Assembly (NCBI GenBank): GCA_030610995.1
Contig: JAUWQO010000004.1
Coordinates: forward strand, 1-63,654
DNA length: 63,654 bases
Reading direction: 5' to 3'
Origin: Desulfobacterales bacterium
Lineage (GTDB): Bacteria; Desulfobacterota; Desulfobacteria; Desulfobacterales; ETH-SRB1
The translations under genes and the position numbers were made by a program. The stretch's first letter is position 1. The number at the start of each line of letters is the position of its first letter. Under the pieces are notes generated by a model. It saw only the letters and a program-made list of their open reading frames with translations. It made no database searches and had not been told where the DNA came from. Positions 44,419 through 58,833 of the stretch are shown here, one piece after another.

Positions 44419-45228
44419 ATGGCAAAGATTGTAGGAGTAAGATTTAAGTCTTTTGGCAAGGTTTACGATTTTGACAGCGGCGCATTTGTGCTTAGCTGCG
44501 GAGATAGTGTGATTGTAGAAACAGAGCGGGGTCTTTCTTTTGGAATGGTTGCGGCGCCTCCCGCGCCACGTGATGAACAGTTGTCGGGCCGGCCGCTTAA
44601 AAAGGTGTTTCGTCTCGCTAATGAAAAAGATTTCAAGCAGCGAGAGAAAAACCTTGAAAAAGAAAAAGCGGCCCAAGCATTCTGCATTAAATGCATCAAT
44701 GAGCTAAAACTGAAAATGAACCTGTTTGTTGTTGAAAGCTCCTTTGATAGTAGCAAGCTGACCTTTTTTTTCACGGCCGAGGGTCGTGTCGACTTTCGTC
44801 AACTTGTTAAAAAGCTGATCAACCAGTTCGGGGTCAGGATTGAGATGAGACAGGTTGGAATACGGAATCAGGCCAAGATGAGCGGCGGTGTCGGAAGATG
44901 CGGACGACAAATCTGTTGCTCTCTATTCATGAATACGTTTGAACCGGTTTCTATACGTATGGCAAAGGACCAGAATCTGTCGTTAAATCCAACAAAGATT
45001 TCCGGTTTGTGCGGCAGGCTGATGTGTTGCCTTACATATGAATATGAAACATACAAAAAGCTTAAGAAAAAGTTTCCAAAGATCGGAAAAATAGTGAATA
45101 CTGCGATGGGACGGGGCAAGGTGATACGACATAACGTAATACAAAATCGCCTGACAATACATATGGATGAGGGTCAGGATGTAGAATTGCTGTTAGATGA
45201 TATTATAAAGGAACAGGAGAGAAAATGA
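44419..45228 (+). CDS. PSP1-domain protein (RicT/YaaT-like)
   Basis: VGVRFK..GKVYDFD start, PSP1 C-terminal domain with Cys cluster (CGRQICCS..LCGRLMCCL). Confidence 0.8.
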   Translation: MAKIVGVRFKSFGKVYDFDSGAFVLSCGDSVIVETERGLSFGMVAAPPAPRDEQLSGRPLKKVFRLANEKDFKQREKNLEKEKAAQAFCIKCINELKLKMNLFVVESSFDSSKLTFFFTAEGRVDFRQLVKKLINQFGVRIEMRQVGIRNQAKMSGGVGRCGRQICCSLFMNTFEPVSIRMAKDQNLSLNPTKISGLCGRLMCCLTYEYETYKKLKKKFPKIGKIVNTAMGRGKVIRHNVIQNRLTIHMDEGQDVELLLDDIIKEQERK

Positions 45229-47159
45229 CCAGGCCGTTTTATATAACAACTCCTATCTATTATGTAAACGCAATGCCCCATCTTGGGCATGCATATACTA
45301 CTATTGTAGCCGATGTTGTTTGCCGGTTTAATTTTATGCAACAGAACGAAACCTTGTTTTTGACCGGCACAGATGAACATGGGGACAAAATAGTACGCGC
45401 CGCTAAAAAAGAGAATATAAGCCCCAGGGCCTATGTGGACAAAATAAGCGAAGTTTTCAGAGACCTATGGCCCCAGCTTAACATTAAATATGATTATTTT
45501 ATCCGTACTTCCGATCCAGCCCATATTGCTGTTGTGAAGCAGATACTGCAGAAAGTTTATGATGCGGGCGATATCTATTTTAGCGAGTATGAAGGGCTCT
45601 ATTGTTTTGGGTGCGAACGCTTCTTTACCGAGCGCGAGCTGGTTGATGGAAAGTGTCCCGACCATCTCATTGAACCGGAACCTATCAAGGAGTCCAACTA
45701 TTTTTTCAAGATGAGCCGGTATCAGGACTGGCTTATCGATCATATTGAGAAGCATCCCGATTTTATTCGACCTGAACGATACAGAAATGAAGTTCTGGCA
45801 TTTTTAAGCGAACCCCTTGAAGATCTTTGCATATCACGCCCAAAGACGCGACTTAAATGGGGAATCACCCTGCCGTTTGATAAAAACTATGTTACATATG
45901 TGTGGTTTGATGCTCTTTTAAACTATATCTCAGCTCTTGGATATCCTGATGGAGAGCTGTTTAAAAAATTTTGGCCGTATGCCCAGCATCTGGTTGCTAA
46001 GGATATTCTCAAGCCTCACGGTATATACTGGCCTATCATGCTTAAAGCTGCCGGTATTCCAATGTATAATCATCTTAACGTTCATGGATACTGGAATGTT
46101 GACCAGGGCAAGATGTCCAAAAGTATTGGGAATGTTGTAGAGCCGCTCCAGTTGAAAAATATTTACGGGCTTGATGCATTCAGATTTTTTTTGATGCGGG
46201 ATATGGTATTCGGGCTTGATTCCAACTTTAGCGAACAGGCGCTGGTTCAGCGAATCAATGCGGATCTGGCAAACGATCTCGGCAACCTGTTTTCCAGAGT
46301 TGTTGCAATGGTCCACAAATATTTCAAAGGCATAGTCCCTGAGGTTGATCCGGGAGTTGAAGATGAGTTTCAGCTTGGTCTTAAATCGGATATGCTGGCT
46401 GCAATCCCCGAATATGAGCAGGCTATGGAGAATTTTGCTTTTCACAAAGCCCTTGTGACAACCTGGGAGTTAATCGCCAAGATGAACAGATATGTCGATG
46501 TTACGTCGCCGTGGGTGCTTGCAAAGAAAAAATCCAGCCAAAAACAGTTGCAGGTTGTAATCTCAAATCTTCTTAACGGGCTCGGAGTGATAGCAGGTCT
46601 TATTTATCCGATCATGCCGGACACATCCGCAGCCATGCAAAAGCATCTTGGCATAAATCCGGATCTGATTACAAAAGGGAGCTTTAACAACCTCGATATG
46701 CTTAAAACATGGAAAATAATCAAGCCGGGCACACAGCTTCCAAAAGGGATCACCCTTTTTCCCAGAATTGACATGAAAAACAATAAGGCTATGTCGCAGA
46801 AGGAGTCGGCTGCCGGAGATCTCTTATCTGTCTTAAAAACCGAGATACCTGTAGAAGCATTCGGCGCAATTGATCTCAGGGTGGCTACAGTGCTTAGCGC
46901 AGAATCGATTCCAAGGGCAAAAAAGCTGCTTAAGCTTGAGGTCGATCTGGGAGAAAAGCGGACCCTTGTAGCAGGTGTTGCCGCAAGCTATAAACCTGAA
47001 GATCTGGTCGGGAAACAGGTAATAGTGGTTGCTAATTTAAAGCCGGCTAAAATAATGGGAATAGTTTCAAACGGAATGGCGCTGGCTGCTGTTGATGATA
47101 ATGGCTGTTCTTTAGTAACCGTAGATAGAAAGGTTAAGCCGGGAACGCCTGTGAGCTGA
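45225..47159 (+). CDS. metG: Methionine--tRNA ligase with C-terminal tRNA-binding (EMAP-like) domain
   Basis: TPIYYVNAMPHLGHAYT (HIGH), KMSKS, Zn knuckle CFGCERF..CPDH. Confidence 0.93.
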   Translation: MTRPFYITTPIYYVNAMPHLGHAYTTIVADVVCRFNFMQQNETLFLTGTDEHGDKIVRAAKKENISPRAYVDKISEVFRDLWPQLNIKYDYFIRTSDPAHIAVVKQILQKVYDAGDIYFSEYEGLYCFGCERFFTERELVDGKCPDHLIEPEPIKESNYFFKMSRYQDWLIDHIEKHPDFIRPERYRNEVLAFLSEPLEDLCISRPKTRLKWGITLPFDKNYVTYVWFDALLNYISALGYPDGELFKKFWPYAQHLVAKDILKPHGIYWPIMLKAAGIPMYNHLNVHGYWNVDQGKMSKSIGNVVEPLQLKNIYGLDAFRFFLMRDMVFGLDSNFSEQALVQRINADLANDLGNLFSRVVAMVHKYFKGIVPEVDPGVEDEFQLGLKSDMLAAIPEYEQAMENFAFHKALVTTWELIAKMNRYVDVTSPWVLAKKKSSQKQLQVVISNLLNGLGVIAGLIYPIMPDTSAAMQKHLGINPDLITKGSFNNLDMLKTWKIIKPGTQLPKGITLFPRIDMKNNKAMSQKESAAGDLLSVLKTEIPVEAFGAIDLRVATVLSAESIPRAKKLLKLEVDLGEKRTLVAGVAASYKPEDLVGKQVIVVANLKPAKIMGIVSNGMALAAVDDNGCSLVTVDRKVKPGTPVS

Positions 47160-47421
47160 AAGCGACCATAATCCTTAGATGGCATCCACCGCACAGCCCT
47201 TCTCCTTATATCCGAAATTCTTGGAAATACCACCACCACCATGCCCATAAGCGCTTAAATAAGCATTTTTTTAACCCCAGAAGTAGTTGTAGCAAAATTC
47301 ATAATTCACAATTAGCGATTGATTATTGACAATTTGTAGTGATAAGTTAAGTAGTTATCGACATCGACCCATTTTGTATAATAATCAATAATCAATTGTA
47401 AATTACTAATTGTTAAAAACT

Positions 47422-47468
47422 TTTCCACAAGGCTTTTAACCCCTAACGGCTGTCTGTGGGACCTGGTA
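47422..47468 (+). repeat. 47-nt fragment homologous to the 3' part of the XRE-ImmA gene (matches 49901..49948)
   Basis: tttccacaaggcttttaacccctaacggctgtctgtgggacctggta versus tttccagaaggcttttaacccccaacggccgcctgtgggatctggta: 5 mismatches in 47 by my count. Confidence 0.75.
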
Positions 47469-47499
47469 CGGGAAAAAAATCAAACAGCCATCAAAGTAT

Positions 47500-47561: not shown

Positions 47562-48683
47562 ATGCGTTATGTATGGCAAAATACAAACTGGACAGAATTT
47601 AGCTGGGAAAGTGATGCACTGATTCAACCGCTTGGTCGGGCTCGACTGCGCCAGGGCAGGTTGCTGAGCAAGGTGAATGCTCTGGGTTTGAAATTCAGCA
47701 AAGAAGCCAGGGTTGAAATATTGATTGAAGAAGCCGTTAAAACCGCTGCGATCGAAGGGCAGGCCCTGCACAGGGATTCGGTCAGGTCTTCAGTGGCACG
47801 GCGACTTGGGCTGCCGACAGCCGGTTTGCCCGCCACGGAACGGGTTGTCGATGGCCTGGTGGATGTTCTGTTGGATGCCACTGCAAATTACAGCGAGCCG
47901 CTGTCGCCCGAAAGACTGATTGGCTGGCAGGCTGCCCTCTTTCCGACAGGGTATTCAGGCTTGCGGAAAACTCGTACCGGTCAATGGCGAGGCCCGGAAC
48001 TTATGCAGGTGGTATCAGGCCCTGTTGGCAAAGAAAAAGTCCACTTTGAGGCGCCGCCATCAGACCAGGTGGATATGGAAATCAGAGATTTCATTCAATG
48101 GTGGACAAAGGGATCGAAAAAAATCGAGGGACTGCTGCGGGCCGCTATAGCCCATTTTCGGTTTGTCACTATTCATCCGTTTGAAGATGGTAATGGACGG
48201 ATCGCCAGAGCCCTTACTGATATGGCGTTGGCACAGGATGAGAACCTGCCGTCCAGGTTTTACAGCCTTTCGACACGTATCATGGCTGAAAGGGATAGAT
48301 ACTACCGTGTGCTGGAGCAATGTCAGAAAGGAGACGGTAATATAACTGATTGGCTGCTATGGTTTCTGGAATGTTTCGAACGGGCGCTTGAGCATTCAGA
48401 GACATTGATTTCAAATGTTCTGGCAAAGGCACGGTTTTGGCAGCAGCATGGGCAGACGACATTGAATAAACGCCAGCAAAAGGTTATCAATCGGTTGCTG
48501 GATGCCGGTCCAGGCGGTTTCGAAGGCGGTCTGACCACCCGTAAATATGTGGGCATGGTAAAGGTTAGCCGGGCAACCGCTTATCGCGAGATATCGGACC
48601 TGGTTGCAAAGCAGATATTTAGGCAGAACCCGGGCAGGGGTCGCAGTGTCAGCTATGACATAATATGGGCAGATACGGAGTAA
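47562..48683 (+). CDS. Fic family protein (DUF4172-type N-terminus, class II inhibitory helix, C-terminal wHTH-like tail)
   Basis: Fic motif HPFEDGNGRIARAL; N-terminal TAAIEG matches the (S/T)xxxE(G/N) intramolecular inhibitory motif. Confidence 0.85.
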   Translation: MRYVWQNTNWTEFSWESDALIQPLGRARLRQGRLLSKVNALGLKFSKEARVEILIEEAVKTAAIEGQALHRDSVRSSVARRLGLPTAGLPATERVVDGLVDVLLDATANYSEPLSPERLIGWQAALFPTGYSGLRKTRTGQWRGPELMQVVSGPVGKEKVHFEAPPSDQVDMEIRDFIQWWTKGSKKIEGLLRAAIAHFRFVTIHPFEDGNGRIARALTDMALAQDENLPSRFYSLSTRIMAERDRYYRVLEQCQKGDGNITDWLLWFLECFERALEHSETLISNVLAKARFWQQHGQTTLNKRQQKVINRLLDAGPGGFEGGLTTRKYVGMVKVSRATAYREISDLVAKQIFRQNPGRGRSVSYDIIWADTE

Positions 48684-48842
48684 AATGTTATCACTAAAAC
48701 CAATCTCCGGTGCCTGTCTAAACTCAACATCTGCCCAATCATAAACTGGAAACACAGCGGCTTGAACTTCTAATTCATTGACCCATTTTCTTCTTCTGCA
48801 CACTCTCTGACACGCTCCCAGAACCATTTCGTGCTATATATC

Positions 48843-48867
48843 TGTCAATATAAAAATTATATTGACA
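48843..48867 (+). promoter_or_regulatory. Candidate operator: 10-bp perfect inverted repeat upstream of the XRE-ImmA gene
   Basis: tgtcaatata-aaaat-tatattgaca; right arm contains TTGACA (-35-like) followed 17 nt later by TAACAT. Confidence 0.4.
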
Positions 48868-48897
48868 AAAACAAGACCAAAAAGTAACATTAAAAAT

Positions 48898-50034
48898 ATG
48901 AAAATCAATCTTGGTTTCATCGGAAAAAATATCCGTAAACTTAGACGGCAACGTAGTTGGACGATGGCTAAACTCGCTGCAAAAGTCGGAATGAGCGAAG
49001 TGCCTTTAGGAAGAATTGAGCGCGGTGTAAACGCTCCTTCCGCTTCTGTAATTTACAGACTGTCAAAAGAGTTGGGCGTTTCTGTGGATATGCTTTTTGC
49101 CGAGGATAATCAAAACCTCAGATCTCTTCAGTATGAAAAAGCACGAAATCCTTTTCTTGTTGCAATCGACAAAGAGCATGAAGCTCTGCCCGCTAAAACC
49201 AGGATTATGGCCCAGGATATTATTGATGCGTTTTGTGCCCTTGAAGATATTTGCAAAGCGCAGAAAAGGGCAAATATTCCGCTTGTTATTCCTTTCGATC
49301 TCACAATTAGGGGAATGGAAGCACTTTCGGAAAAGGTGCGCTATTTTGCCGGAATTGAGCACGGCGTGGTCTTTGACTATTTTGAACTCTTTGAAACCCT
49401 TGGTTTTCGTGTAATCGTAGCTCCTATGCCTAAAGGAATTGAGAGTTTTTCATATTATGACCCTTTAAATCAGAATGCTTTCTTTTTTTTGACGGCAAGG
49501 CAGAATCCTGAACGTCAGCTTTTTTGCCTGGCCTATGAATTGGGAAAGGTCTTAATCCTGACTCACTCTATACAGCAGGGCGTGGAATTGTTTCAAACCG
49601 ATGCCGCATCTGATTCTTCAGGCGAAAAACCGTTTACAGCTCATCGTGCTGCCAGGCGTTTTGCCGCTACCTTTCTGATGCCTGCAAAAGCTGTGAGCGA
49701 TACTGTTAGACAATTAGGAATTCAAAAAAAGTACTGGTCTTACGAACTCTTGCTTAGAATCAAACATCGCTTTGGTGTTTCAGCAGAAGCTTTTTTATAT
49801 CGTTTAAATGAACTCGATTTAATCGATCCCTCTCTGGTTCAATCGCTTAAAGCTAAAATTCATAAATATTACGGCAAAACAAATTTTGGCGAACCAGATC
49901 TTTCCAGAAGGCTTTTAACCCCCAACGGCCGCCTGTGGGATCTGGTATTAACCGGGAAAGAATCAAAAGAAGGACGTGAGGAAGTGTTTAAAATTGAGAA
50001 AGTATTGAAAAAGTGGAAGGTAGTAAGAAAATGA
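48898..50034 (+). CDS. XRE-family HTH fused to ImmA/IrrE-type metallopeptidase domain
   Basis: N-terminal HTH (IRKLRRQRSWTMAKLAAKVGMSEVPLGRIERG), C-terminal region with ImmA/DUF955-like layout (LAYELGKVL..., FAATFLMP); ATG at 48898 preferred over TTG 48862. Confidence 0.7.
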   Translation: MKINLGFIGKNIRKLRRQRSWTMAKLAAKVGMSEVPLGRIERGVNAPSASVIYRLSKELGVSVDMLFAEDNQNLRSLQYEKARNPFLVAIDKEHEALPAKTRIMAQDIIDAFCALEDICKAQKRANIPLVIPFDLTIRGMEALSEKVRYFAGIEHGVVFDYFELFETLGFRVIVAPMPKGIESFSYYDPLNQNAFFFLTARQNPERQLFCLAYELGKVLILTHSIQQGVELFQTDAASDSSGEKPFTAHRAARRFAATFLMPAKAVSDTVRQLGIQKKYWSYELLLRIKHRFGVSAEAFLYRLNELDLIDPSLVQSLKAKIHKYYGKTNFGEPDLSRRLLTPNGRLWDLVLTGKESKEGREEVFKIEKVLKKWKVVRK

Positions 50035-50084
50035 ATCGGTACATAGCGCTGGATGTGGGAACAACCGACCTCTGTGTACATTAA
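50031..50084 (+). pseudogene. Truncated 5' end of a DEDDh exonuclease gene (17 codons then stop)
   Basis: MNRYIALDVGTTDLCVH*; first ~35 nt match the start of the intact exonuclease at 51487; ATGA overlap with the ImmA stop. Confidence 0.6.
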
Positions 50085-50214
50085 AAAATAAGCGGAAAAC
50101 TATATCCAAATACCAGGGCAAGCTGAAGAAAGAAAAGAACCTGGGAACGCAGGTTCAACTGAACACTCGAATCAAACAGATCAAGTGTCGCATCGAGGAA
50201 ATTAAGGCAGCATT

Positions 50215-51342
50215 ATGAATGGCGAAAGAGATAAAAAGCACGAAACAGAACAGCGAAAGGTTCGTAATGTGAAACAAAAAGACGGGATTGTTATGCCTGT
50301 TCCGGTTTCACAAACTGATCTTCCTGATGGCTACGCAAATTTGCTGGCCTCCCTCAAGAAACGTATTCAACAGGAGCGCATAAAAACGGTTCTATCTGCC
50401 AATTGCGCAATGGTGATGCTCTATTGGGATATTGGGGCATCCATACTCGAAAGACAGCAAACCGAGGGCTGGGGGGCAAAAGTCATAGACAGGCTTTCAT
50501 TTGATCTAAAAGAAGCATTCCCGGATATGAAGGGGTTTTCCTCGCGAAATCTGAAATATATGCGCAAATTTGCTGAATCATGGAGAGATCGTCAATTAGT
50601 GCAACGCACCGTTGCACTAATTCCATGGCGCAGCAACCTGGCTCTATTGGACAAATTAAAAGACCTCAAACAACGGCTTTGGTATGCTCAAAAGACAATA
50701 GAAAACGGCTGGAGTCGTGATGTTTTATCCTTTCAGATTGAAACGCAGCTTCACAAACGATTAGGTAAGGCTACTAACAACTTTGAAATAGCGCTTCCTC
50801 CTGCCGATTCTGATATGGCATCTCAAATCTTCAAAGACCCTTATATCTTTGATTTTCTGGGAACGGCTGAACCTCGTAGAGAAACAGAATTAGAGCAGAA
50901 GCTTATTGAGCATCTGGAAAAATTTCTATTGGAACTGGGACAGGGTTTTGCTTTTGTAGGCAGACAGGTTCATATGGAAGTTGGGGATGATGATTTTTAT
51001 ATTGACCTGCTTTTTTATCACCTCAAATTGCGCTGCTATGTGGTGGTTGAGTTAAAGGCTGGAAAATTTCAGGCCGGTCATGTCAGCCAATTGAATATGT
51101 ATATGAATATAGTTGATGATCTGATGCGTCATCCGGATGACAAGCCGACAATCGGACTATTGCTGGTAAAAGAAAAAAACAAAACTCTGGCTAAATATGC
51201 CCTTGCCGGATACACCAAGCCGATGGGTGTTGCCGAGTGGGAAAGACATATAACAGAGTCTATTCCTGAAAATCTTAAATCAAGTCTACCTACCATTGAA
51301 GAGATTGAAGCTGAATTTTCAGCGGAGGAAAATGACGGATGA
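50215..51342 (+). CDS. YhcG/DUF1016-family PD-(D/E)XK nuclease-like protein
   Basis: N-terminal helical region (YWDIG..I...Q..GWGAKVI..LS.DL) and C-terminal nuclease core (FAFVGRQ..DFYIDLLFYH..YVVVELK). Confidence 0.8.
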   Translation: MNGERDKKHETEQRKVRNVKQKDGIVMPVPVSQTDLPDGYANLLASLKKRIQQERIKTVLSANCAMVMLYWDIGASILERQQTEGWGAKVIDRLSFDLKEAFPDMKGFSSRNLKYMRKFAESWRDRQLVQRTVALIPWRSNLALLDKLKDLKQRLWYAQKTIENGWSRDVLSFQIETQLHKRLGKATNNFEIALPPADSDMASQIFKDPYIFDFLGTAEPRRETELEQKLIEHLEKFLLELGQGFAFVGRQVHMEVGDDDFYIDLLFYHLKLRCYVVVELKAGKFQAGHVSQLNMYMNIVDDLMRHPDDKPTIGLLLVKEKNKTLAKYALAGYTKPMGVAEWERHITESIPENLKSSLPTIEEIEAEFSAEENDG

Positions 51343-51406
51343 GCAATAATAGCAGACAATTTCTGGTTAGAGCTGGAGACGACAATGGATAAATTGACAG
51401 AACAGG

Positions 51407-51486
51407 ACGGGAAAAGAATCGGAAAAAGGACGTGAGGAAGTGCTTGAAATTGAGAGAGTATTGAAAAAGTGGAAAGTGGTAAAAAA
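51407..51486 (+). repeat. Orphan 3' fragment of an XRE-ImmA gene directly abutting the intact exonuclease
   Basis: 51428..51521 versus 49972..50065: 8 mismatches in 94 ungapped nt by my count; preserves the ATGA stop/start junction. Confidence 0.8.
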
Positions 51487-51996
51487 ATGAATCGGTATAT
51501 AGCGCTGGATGTGGAAACAACGGGTCTTTCGCCCCAAAACGGGGACAGGGTAATAGAAATCGGCGCAGTTGCTATCGAGAATCAGGGCATTATTGCTGAA
51601 TTCAGCAGCCTTATCGATGTTGACAAAAGGATCCCCTGGCAAGTTCAGCAGGTGCACAGCATAACCAATGAAATGCTAAGCGGCGAACCCAAACCGGATG
51701 AGATATGGTCGGAGTTTTACGAATTCATTGCCGGAAGTATCCTGGTAGCCCACAATGCAAGCTTTGACATCGGATTTTTAAGACATGAATTTGATTTATT
51801 AGGCATGACTCTGAATAATCGGTCTTTGTGTACACTAAAAATGAGCAGAAAGCTATATCCGCATTTGCCCGATCATAAACTGGAAACAGTAAGCCGATAC
51901 CTGCTTGGAGAATCAGCGAATCAGATGCAAAGACATCGGGCGCTTGATGACGCGAAGCTTGCGGCCATGATATGGCTTGAAATGGGGAAAATGTGA
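51487..51996 (+). CDS. DEDDh 3'-5' exonuclease (DnaQ/epsilon-like, stand-alone)
   Basis: ExoI ALDVETTG, ExoII AHNASFDIGFL, ExoIII HRALDDA; 169 aa from ATG 51487. Confidence 0.85.
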   Translation: MNRYIALDVETTGLSPQNGDRVIEIGAVAIENQGIIAEFSSLIDVDKRIPWQVQQVHSITNEMLSGEPKPDEIWSEFYEFIAGSILVAHNASFDIGFLRHEFDLLGMTLNNRSLCTLKMSRKLYPHLPDHKLETVSRYLLGESANQMQRHRALDDAKLAAMIWLEMGKM

Positions 51997-52057
51997 GCAG
52001 GCTGAACAAATGAAAGAGCTGTTAAAATAACAGATTAAACAAGAGGATATCGTAACT

Positions 52058-53074
52058 ATGTCAAAAGAACTTACAAACTCAACCATAGAACGCCAGAATG
52101 TTCTGAACAACCCCTATGCAGTTACCGAAATTCAGAAAGCTGTAGACCTCCGATGCATCTTTTTTGAAGACCGCAATTGGTTAAATAAGGAGCAGATCGC
52201 TTCTTTTTTTGAAGTCACGCCGCGTACCATCGATAATTATCTCAACAAATATGAAAGCGAATTGCGTCATAACGGTTACGAAGTGCTGCAAGGTATCCGA
52301 TTGAAAAAGTTGAAGAAAGCTATAATTGAGCAGTTTGGTGACGAAATGGATTTCATTACCAAAACAACGACTCTCGGCATATTTGATTTTAGGGCGTTTC
52401 TTAATATCGCAATGTTGCTGACCGAAAGCGAACGGGCCCGCGTGTTGCGGCAAACCATTCTGGATATCGTTATCGACACGATAAATCAGCGTACCGGAGG
52501 CAGTACCAAATATATCAATCAGCGTGACGAAGACTTTATTCTTGCCTACTTTCAGGAGGAGAATTACCGCAAGGAATTTACCAATGCGTTGCGGGATTAT
52601 GTGGACATGGGTAATTTCAAATACCCGATGTACACCAATAAAATTTATGTCAGCATCTTTCGTGAAAATGCACAAGAATATCGCAAGATACTGAAGCTGC
52701 ACGAAAAAGATAAAGTTCGCGATACCTTTTATTCCGAGATTCTCGATCTGGTGGCTTCCTACGAATACGGATTTGCCAAACTGCTGGAAGCCACCCATGC
52801 AAAATGGCAGCAAAAGCTGACTTCATGGGATGTAGATCTGCTCTTTAAGGAATTTGAGAAACAGCCGCACTGGAAACCCCTGGTTGAAAGGGCCAGAAAC
52901 AAGATGGCAAGCCGTGACCTGGTGTTCAGAGATGCACTTCATTTGCAGCTAAAAGAATATATTATGCCTGTTCAAGCTGATGAATTTGAACGTTTTCTTG
53001 GGGAGAAAAGCAAGGAGTTGGCAGAACGCCTGGAAGAAGCCAAAGATGTTTTTAAACGGTTAAAGGAACGCTAA
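52058..53074 (+). CDS. RhuM-like DNA-binding protein (probable partner of the adjacent Doc)
   Basis: IFFEDRNWLNKEQIASFFEVTPRTIDNYLNKY parallels the RhuM N-terminal motif (..VWLTQ.QMAELF...R.VI..HI.NIF); 3-nt gap to Doc gene. Confidence 0.5.
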   Translation: MSKELTNSTIERQNVLNNPYAVTEIQKAVDLRCIFFEDRNWLNKEQIASFFEVTPRTIDNYLNKYESELRHNGYEVLQGIRLKKLKKAIIEQFGDEMDFITKTTTLGIFDFRAFLNIAMLLTESERARVLRQTILDIVIDTINQRTGGSTKYINQRDEDFILAYFQEENYRKEFTNALRDYVDMGNFKYPMYTNKIYVSIFRENAQEYRKILKLHEKDKVRDTFYSEILDLVASYEYGFAKLLEATHAKWQQKLTSWDVDLLFKEFEKQPHWKPLVERARNKMASRDLVFRDALHLQLKEYIMPVQADEFERFLGEKSKELAERLEEAKDVFKRLKER

Positions 53075-53076
53075 TA

Positions 53077-53511
53077 ATGGGATTTGTTTACCCTACACTT
53101 GAACAGGCCGTGAATGTACATCAGAAAACCGTTGAGATCAGCGGTGGCGGAACGATGGGAAAATTGGATATGGGAAGGCTCGAAAGTGTTCTTTGCCATA
53201 TCCAAAACGATGACTACTATCCGGTTTTCGAAGACAAACTGACCCATCTCTTTTTCGGAGCCTGTAAATTCCATTGTTTTGAAGACGGAAACAAACGGAT
53301 CGCCATTTCATTGGGTGCCCAGTTCTTATTGCTGAACGGTTATGTTTTCGTTACCAAGCGGTTTATCCATGAGATGGAAAATATCAGCTATCATGTCGCA
53401 ACGGGAGAAATTGATAAAGACCTGCTTAAAGAGATTATCTCCGCTGTCATTGAAGATGATATGGAACGTGAAGGTTTGAAACTGAAGATATTAATGGCGA
53501 TTTCAGATTAA
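53077..53511 (+). CDS. doc: Doc (death-on-curing) family toxin, Fic/Doc superfamily
   Basis: HCFEDGNKRIAISL motif (HxFxDGNKR), ~140 aa. Confidence 0.85.
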   Translation: MGFVYPTLEQAVNVHQKTVEISGGGTMGKLDMGRLESVLCHIQNDDYYPVFEDKLTHLFFGACKFHCFEDGNKRIAISLGAQFLLLNGYVFVTKRFIHEMENISYHVATGEIDKDLLKEIISAVIEDDMEREGLKLKILMAISD

Positions 53512-53545
53512 CATTATGAACCACGGATGGACAAAGGTTCCAGCC

Positions 53546-53831
53546 GGAATTTTACAAATTCATTACCGGAAGTATTCTGGTAGCCCACAATGCAAGCTTT
53601 GATATCGGATTTCTAAGACACGAATTTGCTTTATTAGGAATAGGCCTGAACAACCGGTCTTTATGCACACTAAAAATGAGCAGAAAGCTATATCCGCATT
53701 TGCCCGATCATAAACTGGAAACAGTTAGTCAATACCTGCTTGGAGAATCAGTAAATCACATGCAAAGACACCGAGCGCTCGATGATGCGAAGCTTGCTGG
53801 TATGATATGGCTTGAAATGGGGAAGATATGA
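53546..53831 (+). pseudogene. 3' fragment (last ~95 codons, frame intact) of a second, diverged DEDDh exonuclease gene
   Basis: Ungapped match to 51711..51996 including an identical run of more than 50 nt; lacks ExoI, keeps ExoII/III; ends in its own stop at 53829..53831. Confidence 0.7.
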
Positions 53832-54581
53832 GTGGTTCAGTCCATAAGACTGTGTCAGCCGCGAATGGATTGGAGGGTGTCAATGACGGCGAAGCCGATC
53901 AAAAGGAAGAGTGACAAGCTTGTGAGCATACAGGGGTATGATGGCCTTCTTTCCGGCATGGTCTCTCTCATTGAGGAGGCGCGACGGGTATCAGCACGAA
54001 CCGTCAACGCCATCATGACGGCAACCTACTGGGAGATAGGTCGCCGCATTGTAGAAAACGAGCAGGGCGGGAAACGGCGGGCTGGGTATGGAGAGGCTCT
54101 GCTCAAGCAACTTTCGGCAGATCTTGCGAGCCGGTTTGGTCGAGGCTTCGCAAAAAGCAATCTCTACCAGATGCGGACCTTCTATCTGACGTATCAGGAT
54201 ATTTTCCAGACGGCGTTTGGAAAATCAAAGTCCCGAAAATTCCAGACACCGTCTGGAAAATCTCAGCCTCACAATTCGCAGACTCCGTCCGCGGAATTGA
54301 CTGTTCAGGCCATCTCAGAACGGTTTCCGCTCCCTTGGTCTGCCTATAATCCCGACGGACCTTGGACATATCAACATCAAACGTCTATTCACGGTAAACG
54401 TGATGGGTTTACAATAGCAGATTTGCTTGCCGTTGGTAAAGAGATGAATATCAAGTCCGGCCTCCCGATTATCAAAGCGGTAATAGAATCAGTTTCACAA
54501 TGGCCGCGTTTTGCCAGTGAGGCCGGGGTCGAGAACAGGCAGATTGAAGCCATCGGGAAGGTGCATCGGTTGAGTCTATAA
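53832..54581 (+). pseudogene. Chimeric ORF: DUF1016/YhcG N-terminal region fused to a HipA-like C-terminal tail
   Basis: aa ~40-170 resemble the DUF1016 N-domain (TATYWEIGRRIVENEQ..GYGEALLKQLSADL, FPLPWSAY); from AYNPDG onward it reads like the end of HipA kinases (..SIHGKRDGFTIADLL..WPRFASEAGV); nuclease core and kinase core both missing. Confidence 0.5.
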
Positions 54582-54583
54582 TT

Positions 54584-54748
54584 TTGATGGCGTCGTAAAA
54601 AGTCCCATCTACTGTGTTGTAGTATTTTTTCAGACCCTCGACATACTATATATATGCCTTCGGTCCTGAAAAACTACTACGCCTTGTATATGAACCTTTT
54701 TACTTAGCCATCTGCAGTTAAATTCGTGACTTTTTACGAGTTCATCAA
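54584..54748. repeat. TIR-bounded miniature element, family tcgtaaaaagtc, inside the island
   Basis: ttgatggcgtcgtaaaaagtc / gtgactttttacgagttcatcaa ends. Confidence 0.7.
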
Positions 54749-54818
54749 TTTTATATGCTGTAACAACTGCTAACTGCGAGTTAGGGCAAAAGCTGAAGAT
54801 TTCGCAACCTGCAGTAAG

Positions 54819-54910
54819 TTTAGCGGTTAAACGCTTAAGAGCAATTCGTTATACGCCACAATTACTCATTAAAACCTTAACAGTAATTTATAAACCAATG
54901 TACGAAAGTC
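54819..54910. repeat. Dispersed ~97-bp repeat (copy 2; see 33..129), here extended upstream into an HTH-like reading frame
   Basis: Frame reads ..ELGQKLKISQPAVSLAVKRLRAIRYTPQLLIKTLTVIYKPMYESRK* with no start codon. Confidence 0.7.
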
Positions 54911-55016: not shown

Positions 55017-56909
55017 ATGGAATTAAAATCAAAAGTTTCGATTTTTCCATCGCCCCGCCCGATTCTGAAATGGGCAGGGGGAAAACAGCAATTATTACCC
55101 ATCCTTTTATCCAAAACCCCAAAAAATTTTAACAGGTACATAGAACCATTCTTTGGTGGCGGAGCATTATTTTTTGCATTACAGCCTGACAAGGCCATCA
55201 TTTCAGAATCCAATCCGGAACTTATAAACTTCTATCGTATAATCTCGAAAAATGTTGATAGTCTCATACAAAAACTTTATGAATTCAGGTTAGATAAAGA
55301 AGAATATTATAATATCCGGGTATTGGATTTTCAAAAACTTCCTCCGGTTGAAGCCGCCGCAAGAACCATCTATCTAAATCGGCTCTGTTTTAACGGTCTT
55401 TACCGTGTAAATCGAAAAGGTATGTTTAATGTGCCTTACGGATATTATAAAAATCCCCGCACATGTAACCCGGAAGGCTTAAAAATCGCATCTGAAGCCT
55501 TAAAAAACGCGACCATCATCCAGGGGGATTATAAAGATGTTCTACGCGACTATGCTAAACCGGGAGATTATATATATCTCGACCCTCCTTACCTGCCTAT
55601 TTCGGAATACTCTGATTTTAAACGTTATACCAAAGAGCAATTCTATGAAGAAGATCACGTTGAACTTGCAGAGGAAGTAAAACGACTGCATGAACTTGGA
55701 TGTTACGTTTTATTGACAAATTCCAACCATCCAATGGTTTATGAGATGTACAACGGTTTTGAAATCGAAGTTATTCAAACTCGCAGGAATATCAATAAAA
55801 AAGGCAATAAGCGTAAAGGGGAGGATGTTGTAATCTATATTCCTCCACGCCGGTATTTTCTCATAAGCCCTGTTCCACCGGAATTACCAAAGCAGGCAAA
55901 AGCATATCCGTCCACACGTTTTATGGGGAGCAAGCAATCTCTTTTAAAGCATATATGGAACGTAGCATCACAATTTGAATTTGAAACCGTACTTGATATA
56001 TTTAGTGGAAGCGGTGTCGTTGGTTATATGTTCAAATCGTTCAACAAACAGGTTATAAGCAACGATTACATGGCTATGTGTGCCACATTTGCCGAAGCCA
56101 TGATAGCCAATAACACCGAAACACTTGACAAAAGCGAAGTTGAATTTCTGTTATCTCCATCTGCAAAAACAGATGATTTTGTAAGTCAAACTTTTCAAGG
56201 ACTCTATTTTATTGATGAAGAAAACGCATTTATTGACCAAATCCGGGGAAATATAAAAAGGCTTAAAAATAAAACCAAAAGGTCAATAGCCACATCCGCA
56301 CTTATACGTGCCTGCCTGAAAAAACGCCCCAGGGGAATCTTTACCTATACCGGACATAGGTATGATGACGGACGGAAAGATCTCCGGTTATCTCTGAAAG
56401 AACACTTTTTAAAAGCCGTTAAATGTACAAATCAGGCTGTTTTCGATAACAGCAAAGGAAATAAAGCCAGGTGCGGAGATGCCATGACCATCCGGTTAAA
56501 ACCGGATTTGGTCTATATTGACCCTCCTTATTATAGCCCATATTCCGACAATGAATATGTCAGGCGGTATCATTTTGTTGAAGGATTGGCGTGTAACTGG
56601 AAAGGTGTGGAAATGCAATGGCATACGAAAACCCGAAAATTTAAAAGCTATCCCACCCCCTTCAATTCAAGGATAGGAGCACATGACGCATTTAACAAAC
56701 TGTTTCGGAAATTTAAGGATAGTGTTCTAATCGTTTCCTATTCATCAAATTCCTTTCCAAATCAGGAAGAACTAACAAACCTCATGGCAAAATATAAAAG
56801 CCAGGTCGAGGTTGTTTCGATAGACTATCGATACAGCGCAGGAAACCAGGGACACAAAATCAACGACAATAATAACAAGGTGCGGGAATACCTGTTTGTA
56901 GGTTTTTGA
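55017..56909 (+). CDS. Tandem double Dam-like (D12 class) N6-adenine DNA methyltransferase
   Basis: Two complete modules: (1) LKWAGGKQQLL, EPFFGGGALFF, YLDPPY; (2) FMGSKQSLL, LDIFSGSGVVG, YIDPPY; fusion of two such modules is typical of methylases serving asymmetric (Type IIS) sites. Confidence 0.8.
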   Translation: MELKSKVSIFPSPRPILKWAGGKQQLLPILLSKTPKNFNRYIEPFFGGGALFFALQPDKAIISESNPELINFYRIISKNVDSLIQKLYEFRLDKEEYYNIRVLDFQKLPPVEAAARTIYLNRLCFNGLYRVNRKGMFNVPYGYYKNPRTCNPEGLKIASEALKNATIIQGDYKDVLRDYAKPGDYIYLDPPYLPISEYSDFKRYTKEQFYEEDHVELAEEVKRLHELGCYVLLTNSNHPMVYEMYNGFEIEVIQTRRNINKKGNKRKGEDVVIYIPPRRYFLISPVPPELPKQAKAYPSTRFMGSKQSLLKHIWNVASQFEFETVLDIFSGSGVVGYMFKSFNKQVISNDYMAMCATFAEAMIANNTETLDKSEVEFLLSPSAKTDDFVSQTFQGLYFIDEENAFIDQIRGNIKRLKNKTKRSIATSALIRACLKKRPRGIFTYTGHRYDDGRKDLRLSLKEHFLKAVKCTNQAVFDNSKGNKARCGDAMTIRLKPDLVYIDPPYYSPYSDNEYVRRYHFVEGLACNWKGVEMQWHTKTRKFKSYPTPFNSRIGAHDAFNKLFRKFKDSVLIVSYSSNSFPNQEELTNLMAKYKSQVEVVSIDYRYSAGNQGHKINDNNNKVREYLFVGF

Positions 56910-56911
56910 TT

Positions 56912-58675
56912 ATGGCAAATCCATGGCACATAGGAAACACAACAGTCAGAACCCCTTACCGTTTAAGAGATGCTTTAATTGCTTTAGCGCATTCAGAATA
57001 TCATGGCAATCTGGTAGGAAAAGTCAGAGAAAGTGGATTCGCAAGATTACTTCATGAAAAAGAAATCTTAAAAGCTGAACGAATTGACCAGGACGATTCA
57101 CAGGACTTTAGCGATTTAGGAAGAAAGTGGAGAAGTGCCCTTGCCCAATTAGGTTTTGTGATTCAACATCTTACCAGAGAACACCAAAAAGGAATAGACC
57201 CGAAATATAAAGATTTTATCAAAGAACACCCCGATTTTTCGGGGATACCATATGAAGTGACTCCAAACGGAATCAATCTTATCAATGCCGATACAATACC
57301 CGCACAGCAAGAATGTTTTTTAAGAGCATTGGCGGCATACAGAATACCATCTGTATTTGAACCTCGATACAAAGTTAAACAATTTTCACCCTTACACCAT
57401 GTACTTAAAATCCTAAAAAATCTCGAAAACAAAAAAGTCGAGCCTGTAATAAAATTTTGGGAAATGGCGGTTTTGCAATTAACAACTCCCGAAAACGGTT
57501 ACGAAAACATCACAAACAACATCCTCAAATACAGAGAAGAAAGAAAAAAGAGTGCCAACAAAAAAAGATTCGATCAGGAAATGAGGCTAAAAGCAACAAG
57601 CGGCAACATAACAAGGGCAAGAACTCTTAAAGATTACGCCGACTTAAATATTCGATATCTTAAAGCCACAGGTCTGTTTCAATCTTCCGGCAGAGGAATA
57701 ACATTTTTACCGGAAAAACGCATCCTGGTTGAAAAACTCCTTGAAGATGAATTTACAATCTATGATGACAATACATACATAAAAGAAATATGGACAGGAG
57801 CTACATTGCCAACTGATAACAGAGAAACAGCGCAAACTGTTATCAAATCATTAGTCGGTAATATCAAAGAATTCGGTGAAAAAATCGCCCTCCCGAGACT
57901 TGAAGATAAAACCTCTCAAGAACTCTCAAACATTCGTCATAATATAGAAGGGCAATTGAGCCGGATAAAAGAAAACGAATTTGCAAATAAGCAAATTATA
58001 AATTGGGAAGAAATCTTATGCTATATGCTTGCTCTTGAAAAACCGGGCAAGAAAATTTCTTTCCAGGATGAAGTGATAAGCATACCACGCGGAGAAGCGC
58101 CGGCTTACTTTGAGTGGATTCTTTGGAGAGCTTTTTTAGCCATTAACTCACTGACAAACAAACCCTGGGAAGCCAGACGATTTAAAATAGACCAGGATTT
58201 TTTGCCAATAGCACCAGCGCCAGGCAGAGGTCCCGATCTCATTTTTGAATTCAAAGATTATGTTCTGGTTGTAGAAGTAACATTAACCTCATCCTCCCGA
58301 CAGGAAGCCGTTGAAGGTGAGCCGGTACGTCGCCACGTTGCCGAAATAGCCGAGCAACACGAAAATACAGGTAAACGAGTATATGGACTATTTATAGCTT
58401 TAAACATAGACAGCAACACCGCTGAAACATTTAAAAGTGGTAACTGGTACAAGCCGGATGATAGTAAACTCCCGCTTCAGATTATTCCAGTCAGGCTTGA
58501 TGATTTTTCCAAACTGTTTGAAGCCGGCTTTAAAGCTGGGGGACTAACTCCCAATAAGATCAGAGAACTGATTACAGAATGCCGTGCTTTGAGTAATTAT
58601 GACGCTCCGGAATGGAAAAGCCAGATAAACAAACAAGTAAAAGAGTTCATAGGGCAAATCATCAAAGACAAATGA
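56912..58675 (+). CDS. AlwI-family-like Type IIS restriction endonuclease
   Basis: N-terminal W.IGNTTVRTPYRL pattern recalls the RE_AlwI family; C-terminal PD..(E)V.. nuclease-like segment GPDLIFEFKDYVLVVEVTL; overlaps/abuts methylase stop (alt. TTG start 56906). Confidence 0.6.
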   Translation: MANPWHIGNTTVRTPYRLRDALIALAHSEYHGNLVGKVRESGFARLLHEKEILKAERIDQDDSQDFSDLGRKWRSALAQLGFVIQHLTREHQKGIDPKYKDFIKEHPDFSGIPYEVTPNGINLINADTIPAQQECFLRALAAYRIPSVFEPRYKVKQFSPLHHVLKILKNLENKKVEPVIKFWEMAVLQLTTPENGYENITNNILKYREERKKSANKKRFDQEMRLKATSGNITRARTLKDYADLNIRYLKATGLFQSSGRGITFLPEKRILVEKLLEDEFTIYDDNTYIKEIWTGATLPTDNRETAQTVIKSLVGNIKEFGEKIALPRLEDKTSQELSNIRHNIEGQLSRIKENEFANKQIINWEEILCYMLALEKPGKKISFQDEVISIPRGEAPAYFEWILWRAFLAINSLTNKPWEARRFKIDQDFLPIAPAPGRGPDLIFEFKDYVLVVEVTLTSSSRQEAVEGEPVRRHVAEIAEQHENTGKRVYGLFIALNIDSNTAETFKSGNWYKPDDSKLPLQIIPVRLDDFSKLFEAGFKAGGLTPNKIRELITECRALSNYDAPEWKSQINKQVKEFIGQIIKDK

Positions 58676-58682
58676 TTTAATA

Positions 58683-58826
58683 AGACCTTTGCATAACCCC
58701 TACTTTTGTTCAATTTTGGTCATTGCGAGGAGCAAAGCGACGTGGCAATCTTGTGGATTATCAACATGTTTTGAGATTGCTTCGCTTTGCTCGCAATGAC
58801 AATACTGGCGTTTTTCAAAGGTCTCT
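58683..58826. repeat. TIR-bounded miniature element, family tttgcataacc..cattgcgag, inside the island
   Basis: agacctttgcataacc / tttttcaaaggtctct ends and cattgcgaggagcaaagcgacg / cgctttgctcgcaatgac arms; explains false N-terminal extension of next ORF. Confidence 0.7.
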
Positions 58827-58833
58827 TAATCTT

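What the first reader, a model, noticed from the sequence alone, without database searches (positions are those of the whole stretch)
48843..51996. Conserved XRE-ImmA fusion coupled by ATGA overlap to a stand-alone DEDDh exonuclease: candidate two-gene sensor/effector module
**Seen in the sequence**
- The junction is identical in two diverged copies. The ImmA stop overlaps the exonuclease ATG (..AGA AAA TGA / ATG AAT CGG) at 50031-50034 and again at 51487-51490, which indicates selection on the pairing.
- The first gene fuses an XRE helix-turn-helix to an ImmA/IrrE-like metallopeptidase region. It is preceded by a perfect 10-bp inverted repeat (tgtcaatata-N5-tatattgaca) overlapping a TTGACA box, i.e. 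a plausible autoregulatory operator.
- The second gene is a minimal 169-aa epsilon-like exonuclease with all three Exo motifs.

**From established knowledge**
- ImmA/IrrE peptidases cleave cognate HTH repressors after DNA damage.
- HTH plus ImmA-like pairs (for example CapH/CapP) gate the expression of some immune operons.

**Inference**
- The pair could be a damage- or infection-responsive switch with a nuclease output.
- Alternatively it could be the conserved regulatory backbone of the mobile elements that brought the neighbouring cargos.
- I do not recognise it as a named defence system.
Basis: partly seen in the sequence, partly recalled or inferred. Interest (0 to 1): 0.6.

Follow-up and report, generated by a model that had tools for sequence, protein, structure and literature searches.

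The report
CRISPR operon head, not two-gene module
The two genes are a DNA-binding regulator with a dead peptidase domain and a small exonuclease that, in related bacteria, each sit at the front of CRISPR-Cas operons; here they are broken, duplicated leftovers of such an operon head, not a self-contained sensor and effector pair.

Summary
The sequence features are real. The ATGA junction occurs twice (102 of 115 nt identical). The HTH + M78 gene, the perfect 10-bp inverted repeat and the 169-aa DEDDh gene are all present. But no intact pair exists. The intact regulator is followed by an exonuclease stub of 17 codons. The intact exonuclease is preceded by only 84 nt of regulator tail.

The M78 domain lacks a complete HExxH in 80 of 80 relatives.

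Relatives of the regulator head type I cas operons: 39 of 45 loci with at least 6 kb downstream have cas genes there, against 0 of 41 upstream. Marker families indicate I-B, I-C, I-E, I-F and I-G.

Relatives of the exonuclease lie directly upstream of cas3 or cas1 in 16 of 33 loci.

The two families share only 8 of 401 sampled genomes. They abut in 1 of 80 other loci, and the exonuclease is broken there too.

Best reading: this is the head of a cas operon (regulator, then an ancillary exonuclease), since invaded by defence cassettes and scrambled.

The scan reached similar readings before on other DNA: e1-2136225 for the regulator and e1-3244329 for the exonuclease.

The stand-alone DEDDh is a known kind. 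The dead-peptidase cas regulator appeared in none of my literature searches.

The parts
48843..48867 (.). Perfect 10-bp inverted repeat with a 5-nt spacer. Its right arm contains the -35 TTGACA box.
   Evidence: unique in the window, 0.01 expected by chance; right arm conserved in 7 of 7 relatives; left arm perfect in the window and L048 only.
48862..48890 (+). Sigma-70-like promoter, TTGACA-17-TAACAT, ending 7 nt before the regulator ATG. This implies a near-leaderless mRNA.
   Evidence: 10 of 12 matches. TTGAC lies at -42 to -30 from the start codon in 64 of 74 relatives' loci.
48898..50034 (+). Intact regulator of 378 aa. It has an XRE helix-turn-helix, an IrrE/CapP-like M78 fold without HExxH (YELGK at aa 213-217), and a helical C-terminal part.
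   Evidence: PADLOC RmrA 1.3e-25; AF2 pLDDT 83.7; Foldseek: IrrE, CapP, PprI+ssDNA.
50031..50084 (+). Broken exonuclease copy of 17 codons then a stop. Exo nt 1-35 are joined to exo nt 327-374 (50059-50107). The catalytic E10 has become G.
   Evidence: Run contigs bridge 49991-50604 and 49886-50442.
51407..51490 (+). Remnant of a second regulator copy: the last 28 codons only. It is 87% identical to 49951-50034.
   Evidence: A run contig bridges 51142-51582.
51487..51996 (+). Intact stand-alone DEDDh 3'-5' exonuclease of 169 aa (D8, E10, D94, H150, D155).
   Evidence: (PADLOC cas-associated DEDDh 1.2e-40).
47422..47484 (+). Fragment of a third regulator copy, matching 49901-49967 at 82%. It is cut on its left by a genome-wide repeat of about 180 nt and is followed by the SoFic gene.
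48700..48754 (+). Remnant of another exonuclease copy downstream of SoFic. It holds the native 5' leader codons (...LNST), joined directly to exo nt 376-402.
   Evidence: In runs X4 and X20 the same leader is joined to a stretch that begins at exo nt 4; the joint is 48728 to 51490.
53545..53832 (+). 3' part of yet another exonuclease copy (exo nt 224-511, 89% identical). It is followed at once by a truncated DUF1016_N gene.
   Evidence: The same block precedes cas3 in L036.

Best explanation
The two genes are the two leader genes of a type I CRISPR-Cas operon head. They are not a stand-alone sensor/effector pair.

**Gene 1: the regulator**
- It is a transcription factor that reads its own promoter.
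- Shown: an XRE HTH; an IrrE/CapP-like fold; loss of both zinc-binding histidines across the family; a conserved TTGACA about 36 nt before the ATG; and first-gene position in cas operons of five subtypes.
- Inferred: it binds an operator at its own, near-leaderless promoter and keeps the downstream co-directional genes low until a signal is sensed. The sensing would be done by the dead-peptidase and C-terminal domains without proteolysis. Single-stranded DNA is a possible signal, as for IrrE/CapP.

**Gene 2: the exonuclease**
- It is a CRISPR-ancillary stand-alone DEDDh 3'-5' exonuclease.
- Shown: intact catalytic motifs; patchy distribution; position directly upstream of cas3 or cas1 in relatives.
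- Inferred: it trims 3' overhangs of spacer precursors or of Cas3 products in trans. This is the activity shown for the Cas2/DEDDh fusion.

**History of the locus (inferred)**
- In the lineage of this genome, the stretch between the regulator and cas3 took up stand-alone defence or toxin cassettes: SoFic, YhcG, RhuM-like + Doc, and DUF1016.
- Recombination between the repeated exonuclease and regulator-tail sequences then duplicated and truncated the head.
- What remains is one intact regulator, one intact exonuclease and five fragments. No cas genes are next to them in this assembly.
For: **Regulator family**
- Among 80 loci from different GTDB species, 45 have at least 6 kb downstream. Of these, 39 have type I cas genes downstream on the same strand, and 17 have them within 400 nt.
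- All 297 downstream cas hits are on the same strand. None of 41 loci with at least 6 kb upstream has cas genes upstream.
- Pfam markers show these subtypes:
  - I-B: L082, L090
  - I-C: L088, L093
  - I-E: L080, L086, L087
  - I-F: L085
  - I-G: L089
- This genome's own second copy (86% identical) directly precedes cas1 of a I-B operon.
- HExxH is incomplete in 80 of 80 loci and in 27 of 27 aligned orthologues.
- The fold matches IrrE, CapP and PprI+ssDNA.
- The promoter lies at a fixed distance from the ATG in 64 of 74 loci.

**Exonuclease family**
- It is present in 27 of 401 genomes of the order and in 14 of 26 genomes of the family.
- It lies directly upstream of a type I cas operon, or one gene away, in 11 of 19 order-level loci and 5 of 14 family-level loci.
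- It matches the PADLOC cas-associated DEDDh profile at 1.2e-40.
- A passage in Wang et al. 2023 (PMC10284694) calls standalone DEDDh exonucleases widespread CRISPR ancillary components.

**Whole islands**
- Three loci show the order regulator, cassettes, exonuclease, cas3: L036/L112, L048/L095 and L050/L119.
- Window 52033-54347 is 94% identical to the block that directly precedes cas3 in L036.
Against: - No cas gene lies next to the module in this window or contig. The island ends in a repeat-truncated DUF1016 gene followed by a restriction-modification system.
- The genome's assembled cas operons (I-B twice, III-B once) are on other contigs.
- No locus with an uninterrupted regulator | exonuclease | cas3 order was seen among 80 + 33 loci. 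The ancestral head is therefore inferred, not observed.
- Several exonuclease copies sit beside housekeeping genes without cas genes: L041, L057, L068, and metG-exo in L039 and L045.
- Many loci are cut by contig ends.
- cas calling used a tblastn panel (alignments of at least 150 aa), not curated typing. CRISPR arrays were not checked.
- Repression, the nature of the signal and the trimming activity are all untested.
- An earlier scan note on the paralogous regulator is flagged 'part of it fell', without saying which part.
Confidence: 0.65

Rival explanations
1. This is a self-contained RosmerTA-like two-gene system. The XRE-M78 protein would be the antitoxin or sensor, and the overlapping DEDDh exonuclease would be its toxin or effector, released on damage or infection.
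For: - The ATGA overlap is present in two window copies and in L097.
- The regulator matches PADLOC RmrA profiles, best 1.3e-25.
- RmrA antitoxins pair with varied toxins, per passages in PMC10440598.
- The locus lies in a defence island.
Against: - No intact pair was seen anywhere. The exonuclease is broken after the intact regulator both in the window and in L097.
- The exonuclease abuts the regulator in 1 of 80 other loci.
- 19 of 27 exonuclease-bearing genomes lack the regulator, and 30 of 38 regulator-bearing genomes lack the exonuclease.
- The peptidase site is dead in 80 of 80 relatives.
- The exonuclease matches no RmrT profile. Its only hits are DEDDh and PDC-S48.
- Each family is linked to cas operons on its own.
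Confidence: 0.07
2. The exonuclease gene and the regulator tail serve mainly as portable homology, or as an attachment region, for a cassette-exchange system. Defence cassettes would be gained and lost precisely at their borders. The pairing would then reflect that role, not a shared biochemical function. This reading does not exclude the best explanation.
For: - Fragments of the exonuclease and the regulator tail bracket each cargo gene.
- Breakpoints recur near exo nt 370-376 in the window (twice), L011, L024, L037 and L049.
- In another strain (run X4), the SoFic cassette sits exactly at the regulator-stop/exonuclease-start junction. The joints are 51491 to 47490 and 48728 to 51490.
- In L036, a 33-nt copy of the exonuclease end is repeated just before cas3.
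- Several relatives hold multiple copies and fragments per genome, often at contig ends.
Against: - No integrase, transposase or recombinase is seen in the window island or in most related islands.
- The exonuclease keeps all its catalytic residues and is 82-87% conserved across genera.
- Shared breakpoints within one genome can be copies of a single deletion; three copies in L049 share the 51774 breakpoint and two share 51859.
- BLAST may detect only the best-conserved stretch of a decayed remnant.
Confidence: 0.2
3. The exonuclease is an ordinary housekeeping DnaQ/RNase T-type enzyme that merely happens to lie near the regulator.
For: - Its best solved-structure matches are the PolC and epsilon proofreading domains.
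- Some copies sit beside housekeeping genes: metG in L039 and L045, Ham1 in L041.
Against: - It is found in only 27 of 401 genomes of the order.
- It is 83-84% identical across different families, which suggests horizontal transfer.
- There are several copies and fragments per genome.
- It sits at the head of cas operons in 16 of 33 loci.
- The genome has another DEDDh domain, in a 732-aa frame on C140.
Confidence: 0.03

Closest known systems
CapH + CapP, and CapH-CapP fusions, which regulate CBASS, DISARM and other immune operons (Lau et al., bioRxiv 10.1101/2022.04.27.489752, passages; PMC13228613, passages)
   Same: - An XRE-type HTH plus an IrrE-like M78 fold, encoded at the front of an immune operon.
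- Foldseek matches CapP 7t5t and the CapH N-terminal domain 7t5u.
- PADLOC capP scores 1.5e-14 and capH scores 4e-12.
- Fused forms are known: 15 CBASS systems and a DISARM set.
   Different: - CapP needs Zn ligands H97, H101 and E128, plus the catalytic E98. Here no complete HExxH occurs in 80 of 80 relatives, so cleavage-based derepression is unlikely.
- CapH/CapP lie on the strand opposite their operon. This regulator is co-directional and is the first gene.
- The associated systems here are type I CRISPR-Cas operons. The passages I read do not report that association.
Cas2/DEDDh trimmer-integrase of type I-E, and standalone CRISPR-ancillary DEDDh exonucleases (Wang et al. 2023, PMC10284694, passages)
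   Same: - A DnaQ-like DEDDh domain with all catalytic residues.
- Sequence match to Cas2-DEDDh 8fy9 (6.3e-15) and to DEDDh 8fyc (1.3e-15).
- Relatives are encoded in type I-E, I-C and I-F cas operons.
   Different: - It is stand-alone, not fused to Cas2.
- In relatives it sits at the cas3 end of the operon, not beside cas1-cas2, except in the I-F locus L059.
- It is more similar to the PolC and epsilon exonuclease domains than to Cas2-DEDDh.
- In this window it has no cas neighbour.
RosmerTA (RmrA antitoxin with an ImmA-type protease domain, plus variable RmrT toxins; PMC10440598, passages)
   Same: The domain order, HTH then M78-like, matches PADLOC RmrA profiles. The downstream partners are variable.
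   Different: - The peptidase motif is dead.
- The downstream partner is not a conserved toxin. It is a cas operon or a set of inserted cassettes.
- The exonuclease matches no RmrT profile.
WYL-WCX regulators (the CapW/BrxR type) of defence operons (PMC11662680, search listing and abstract only)
   Same: They occupy the same position. In L055, L063 and L065 a WYL-WCX gene lies next to the exonuclease at the head of the cas operon.
   Different: The fold and the DNA-binding domain are unrelated.
The Mycobacterium tuberculosis transcriptional regulator of PDB 6cyy/6cz6/6cyj. I recall this to be PrpR, an XRE + M78-like factor that is not a protease; that identification comes from memory, not from a call.
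   Same: Foldseek hit at probability 1.00 over 176-207 columns. It has an HTH plus an M78-like domain and acts as a transcription factor.
   Different: Identity is low (17-20%). The genomic context is different (metabolic, as recalled).

Membership tests
RosmerTA (RmrA/RmrT) | Antitoxin with an HTH and an ImmA-type M78 domain | tested here: met
   PADLOC RmrA profiles, best 1.3e-25 over aa 13-323. Pfam HTH_3 + Peptidase_M78.
RosmerTA (RmrA/RmrT) | Functional protease site (HExxH) in RmrA | tested here: not met
   YELGK aligns with HEFVH of 9vzy_A. No complete HExxH in 80 of 80 relatives.
RosmerTA (RmrA/RmrT) | Conserved two-gene pairing with an adjacent toxin | tested here: not met
   The exonuclease abuts the regulator in 1 of 80 other loci and is broken there. 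The exonuclease matches no RmrT profile.
CapH/CapP-type immune-operon regulators | Zn-metallopeptidase active site (two His, one Glu, plus the catalytic Glu) | tested here: not met
   CapP ligands are H97, H101, E128 and E98. The first His is absent in 80 of 80 loci, and the second is present in 1 of 80.
CapH/CapP-type immune-operon regulators | Encoded at the front of an immune operon | tested here: met
   39 of 45 loci have cas genes downstream, against 0 of 41 upstream. The orientation is co-directional, unlike CapH/CapP.
CapH/CapP-type immune-operon regulators | DNA-damage or ssDNA-triggered derepression | not testable with these tools
   Needs reporter and binding assays. Only fold similarity to ssDNA-bound PprI 8sln is available.
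CRISPR-ancillary standalone DEDDh exonuclease | Complete DEDDh catalytic motifs | tested here: met
   D8, E10, D94, H150 and D155. These align with the PolC exonuclease domain 2p1j.
CRISPR-ancillary standalone DEDDh exonuclease | Recurrent position inside or next to cas operons | tested here: met
   Relatives: 11 of 19 order-level and 5 of 14 family-level loci. PADLOC cas DEDDh profile 1.2e-40. In this window itself there is no cas neighbour.
CRISPR-ancillary standalone DEDDh exonuclease | Prespacer 3' trimming with Cas1-Cas2 | not testable with these tools
   Biochemistry is needed.
Housekeeping DnaQ (epsilon) / RNase T | Near-universal presence in related genomes | tested here: not met
   27 of 401 genomes at E <= 1e-35.

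The most novel reading that the evidence does not exclude
The regulator and the exonuclease form a single-stranded-DNA feedback loop at the head of type I cas operons.
- The dead-peptidase domain would keep the IrrE/CapP-like ssDNA groove. It would release the promoter when Cas3 action or DNA damage makes ssDNA.
- The DEDDh enzyme, as the first gene switched on, would eat 3' ssDNA and reset the switch.
- The short interval between the two genes has been co-opted as a landing pad. It places stand-alone defence genes (SoFic, Doc, YhcG and others) under the same switch.
- This would amount to an integrase-less defence 'cassette rack' wired to CRISPR regulation.
Probability: 0.12. Interest if true: 0.75.

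Novelty: new variant of a known kind. Interest (0 to 1): 0.45.

Why it matters
How CRISPR-Cas operons are switched on is known for only a few model organisms.

**The regulator family.** It has a recognisable CapP/IrrE fold but no catalytic histidines. It sits as the first gene of five type I subtypes in sulfate-reducing Desulfobacterales and keeps a promoter at a fixed distance from its start codon. This points to a portable, non-proteolytic switch for adaptive immunity that can be tested with simple reporter and binding assays.

**The islands.** They also show how stand-alone defence and toxin genes accumulate between such a regulator and the cas genes. That could place innate and adaptive defences under one control.

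**The finding as written.** The value of this follow-up is mostly corrective. The pair is not a new two-gene defence system, and the exonuclease belongs to an already recognised class of CRISPR-ancillary genes.

Tried and rejected
- **Housekeeping DnaQ:** rejected on distribution (27 of 401 genomes).
- **Prophage or viral origin:** scans of viral contigs found no relative, either with the regulator alignment (155 pattern matches, 0 confirmed) or with the exonuclease protein (1 pattern match, 0 confirmed). The single-protein scan reaches close relatives only.
- **Operator conservation:** the perfect inverted repeat is not conserved; the left arm is perfect in 2 of 7. I therefore do not rely on it as the operator.
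- **I-E or I-C cas operon elsewhere in this genome that could belong to the island:** only I-B (C167, C180) and III-B (C74) were found. The assembly is 93% complete in 200 contigs, so this remains open.
- **Literature on an XRE/M78 regulator of cas operons:**
  - Searches found nothing.
  - Passages read from Shmakov et al. 2018 and Lau et al. 2022 did not mention it either.
  - A term search of Makarova et al. 2025 found no 'ImmA', 'XRE' or 'metallopeptidase'.
  - One search was rejected for a badly formed term and was not repeated.
  - I did not open the supplementary tables of these papers, and they may list such genes.
- **RNA evidence:** run X20 (an RNA library, contigs only) covers parts of SoFic, YhcG and Doc and the regulator tail. 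This cannot show transcription, strand or operon structure.
- **Recurrent breakpoint near exo nt 370-376:** a weak hairpin lies there (at 51845-51862). I could not tell a true recombination site from inheritance of one deletion, or from BLAST detecting only the conserved core.
- **Not run:** a binding prediction between the two proteins, because the report claims no binding.

Full report
**What is in the window**

The region downstream of metG (45225-47159) is a co-directional defence island. Its parts, in order:
- A genome-wide repeat of about 180 nt (47246-47426, on dozens of contigs).
- A 63-nt fragment of a regulator gene (47422-47484).
- SoFic (47562-48683).
- A short exonuclease remnant (48700-48754).
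- The intact XRE-M78 gene with its promoter (48843-50034).
- A broken exonuclease (50031-50084, with remnants to 50107).
- A YhcG/DUF1016 nuclease gene (50215-51342).
- An 84-nt regulator tail (51407-51490).
- The intact DEDDh exonuclease (51487-51996).
- A RhuM-like + Doc pair (52058-53511; PADLOC PDC-M59A/B).
- The 3' 288 nt of another exonuclease copy (53545-53832).
- A truncated DUF1016_N gene (53832-54581), cut by another multi-copy repeat.
- A restriction-modification system.
- An ABC-3C/Lamassu-like cassette.

map all of the fragments.

**Check of the observation**

Confirmed:
- The two junction copies are real, 102 of 115 nt identical, and both carry the ATGA overlap.
- The inverted repeat is perfect and unique, with 0.01 expected by chance.
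- The domain calls hold.
- The exonuclease has D8, E10, D94, H150 and D155.
- Contigs assembled independently from two public runs bridge both junctions with 0-1 differences. The structure is therefore not an artefact of this assembly, although one of the runs may be the source sample.

Not as described:
- Neither copy is an intact pair. After the intact regulator the exonuclease reads 17 codons and stops, with nt 36-326 deleted and the catalytic Glu changed to Gly. The intact exonuclease follows only the last 28 codons of a regulator.
- Most relatives' exonuclease genes start about 10 codons further upstream (MLSHNYLNST-NRYVALD) behind many different neighbours. The ATG-AAT-CGG junction is thus a derived recombinant form and not evidence of selection on the pairing.

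**The regulator**

- *Active site.* A solved relative, 9vzy_A, has HEFVH where the window protein has YELGK. The seven closest homologues have (Y/C)ELG(K/S). All 27 aligned orthologues, down to about 50% identity, lack both histidines, and some also lack the Glu. In 80 loci from different GTDB species, the first His is present in 0 of 80 and the second in 1 of 80. CapP needs H97, H101, E128 and E98 (PMC13228613, passage).
- *Fold.* An AlphaFold2 model (pLDDT 83.7) matches IrrE 3dti, CapP 7t5t, ssDNA-bound PprI 8sln and a Mycobacterium tuberculosis regulator 6cyy. The fold is therefore kept while the canonical metal site is lost.
- *Where it sits, order-level sample.* This genome's second copy (86% identical, contig C180) directly precedes cas1 of a type I-B operon. 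In a sample of 401 genomes of the order, 38 have the family. I fetched 20 of those loci and annotated ORFs from 1.5 kb upstream to 6 kb downstream. Twelve have a cas operon downstream on the same strand: I-B (L082, L090), I-C (L088, L093), I-E (L080, L086, L087), I-F (L085), I-G (L089), plus L076, L077 and L083. Four are cut by contig ends, and L084, L091 and L092 show no cas genes.
- *Where it sits, 80-locus scan.* In the scan of one genome per GTDB species, 39 of 45 loci with at least 6 kb downstream have cas genes downstream, and 17 have them within 400 nt. The six exceptions are L096, L111, L126, L132, L156 and L158. As a control, 0 of 41 loci with at least 6 kb upstream have cas genes upstream, and all 297 downstream cas hits are on the regulator's strand.
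- *Promoter.* TTGAC lies at -42 to -30, mostly -35 or -36, from the start codon in 64 of 74 loci. This conserved promoter would give a near-leaderless mRNA. The left arm of the window's inverted repeat is not conserved.

**The exonuclease**

- It is patchy: 27 of 401 genomes of the order at E <= 1e-35 and 14 of 26 genomes of the family. Identity reaches 83-84% across families.
- *Order-level loci.* I examined 19 loci, annotating ORFs within 4.5 kb (146 of 147 ORFs were scanned). In 11 the exonuclease is directly upstream of a type I cas operon or one gene away. These are I-E (L050, L053, L054, L060, L061, L064; L058 and L063 with one gene between), I-C (L056, L065) and I-F (L059). The other eight are L051, L052, L055, L057, L062, L066, L067 and L068; three of these end at a contig end.
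- *Family-level loci.* Of 14 full-length loci, five precede cas3: L038 and L046 directly, and L036, L043 and L048 with one gene between. Two follow metG directly (L039, L045). Several end at contig ends.
- It matches the PADLOC cas-associated DEDDh profile at 1.2e-40.
- Wang et al. 2023 (passage read) state that standalone DEDDh exonucleases are widespread CRISPR ancillary components. They show 3' trimming by the Cas2/DEDDh fusion.

**The pair**

- Comparing the tables by eye (same 401-genome sample), 8 genomes hold both families: G000, G016, G018, G020, G021, G022, G024 and G124.
- Among the 80 regulator loci, an exonuclease piece lies between the regulator and cas genes in 4 of the 45 with enough room.
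- The exonuclease abuts the regulator in only one locus, L097, where it breaks off after about 38 residues.
- Whole islands in relatives read regulator | cassettes | exonuclease | (one gene) | cas3-Cascade: L036/L112, L048/L095 and L050/L119.
- Window 52033-54347 is 94% identical to the block directly before cas3 in L036.
- WYL-WCX regulators take the regulator's place next to the exonuclease in L055, L063 and L065.
- The simplest reading is that both genes are leader genes of type I cas operons. Their direct junction is a relic or a recombinant of that head.

**How the island was scrambled**

- Exonuclease and regulator-tail fragments bracket each cargo gene.
- In a different study's run (X4) and in an RNA library (X20), contigs join 48728 to 51490, so SoFic is followed by a stretch that begins at exonuclease nt 4. 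X4 also joins 51491 to 47490, so the regulator end is followed by SoFic. In another strain, then, the SoFic cassette sits exactly at the regulator-stop/exonuclease-start junction.
- No integrase or transposase is present in the window island.
- I favour recombination between dispersed exonuclease and regulator copies. A dedicated cassette mechanism is not excluded.

**Comparison with known systems**

- It works most like a CapH-CapP fusion at the head of an immune operon. It fails the defining active-site test, is co-directional, and is tied to CRISPR-Cas.
- It is not RosmerTA: the protease is dead and no toxin partner is conserved.
- The exonuclease is a member of the recognised class of standalone CRISPR-ancillary DEDDh genes.
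- I found no paper describing the regulator family at cas operons, either in the searches or in the passages and term searches. Supplementary tables were not opened.

**Earlier notes of this scan** (seen after I had reached my reading)

- e1-2136225 describes the C180 paralogue as a dead-peptidase repressor heading CRISPR-Cas operons. It is flagged 'part of it fell', with no detail.
- e1-3244329 describes a stand-alone DEDDh gene heading a I-E operon in another genome.
- My counts agree with both and were made independently.

**Verdict**

- The two-gene sensor/effector reading is not supported.
- The locus is the duplicated and degraded head of a type I cas operon inside a cassette-rich defence island.
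- The exonuclease is of a known kind.
- The regulator is a new variant of the CapH/CapP-IrrE kind, with a clear and testable role.

Noticed in passing
window 47246-47426 (core 47380-47416), 54580-54750 and 54776-54900: Three short multi-copy repeats are found on dozens of contigs of this genome at 82-97% identity. One abuts the regulator fragment and another truncates the DUF1016_N gene. They look like miniature mobile elements.
   Followed up: partly
L085:5382-7988, L087:2753-5191; also L120 and L125: A large HSP70-like + TPR gene recurs between the regulator and cas1 (I-F) or cas3 (I-E) in four loci. Its role next to cas genes is unexplained.
   Followed up: no
L083:6793-7932, L086:7337-7969, L121, L131; own genome L010:7721-8356: Four-helix-bundle genes of the 23S rRNA intervening-sequence protein family are wedged between the regulator and cas genes. 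In the own genome one lies between cas1 and cas2.
   Followed up: no
window 52058-53511; L050:5466-6919, L082:2868-4321, L036:8780-10272: The RhuM-like + Doc pair (PADLOC PDC-M59A/B) is 89-97% identical at protein level across different families of the order. It is always between the regulator and cas genes, which suggests recent horizontal spread as a unit.
   Followed up: partly
window 55017-59691: A restriction-modification system: a D12-class adenine methyltransferase with two matched stretches, an AlwI-family endonuclease, and a second N6/N4 methyltransferase, all co-directional.
   Followed up: no
window 60024-62925: An ABC-3C/Lamassu-like cassette (CTD10 effector plus a DUF2326 ATPase; PADLOC PDC-M68A/B). 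The scan has already noted it (e1-5015548).
   Followed up: no
G000:C120 (L011) 2449-3198 and 3425-8148: A YhcG_C fragment is followed by a 60-nt exonuclease fragment. Both lie just upstream of a DUF499 / DUF3780 / DUF1156 gene set, which is another island with the same debris.
   Followed up: no
window 48728/51490 and 51491/47490 (runs X4, X20): Other strains in cold-seep and marine-sediment runs carry the arrangement regulator | SoFic | exonuclease. The SoFic cassette is inserted exactly at the stop/start junction seen in the window.
   Followed up: partly
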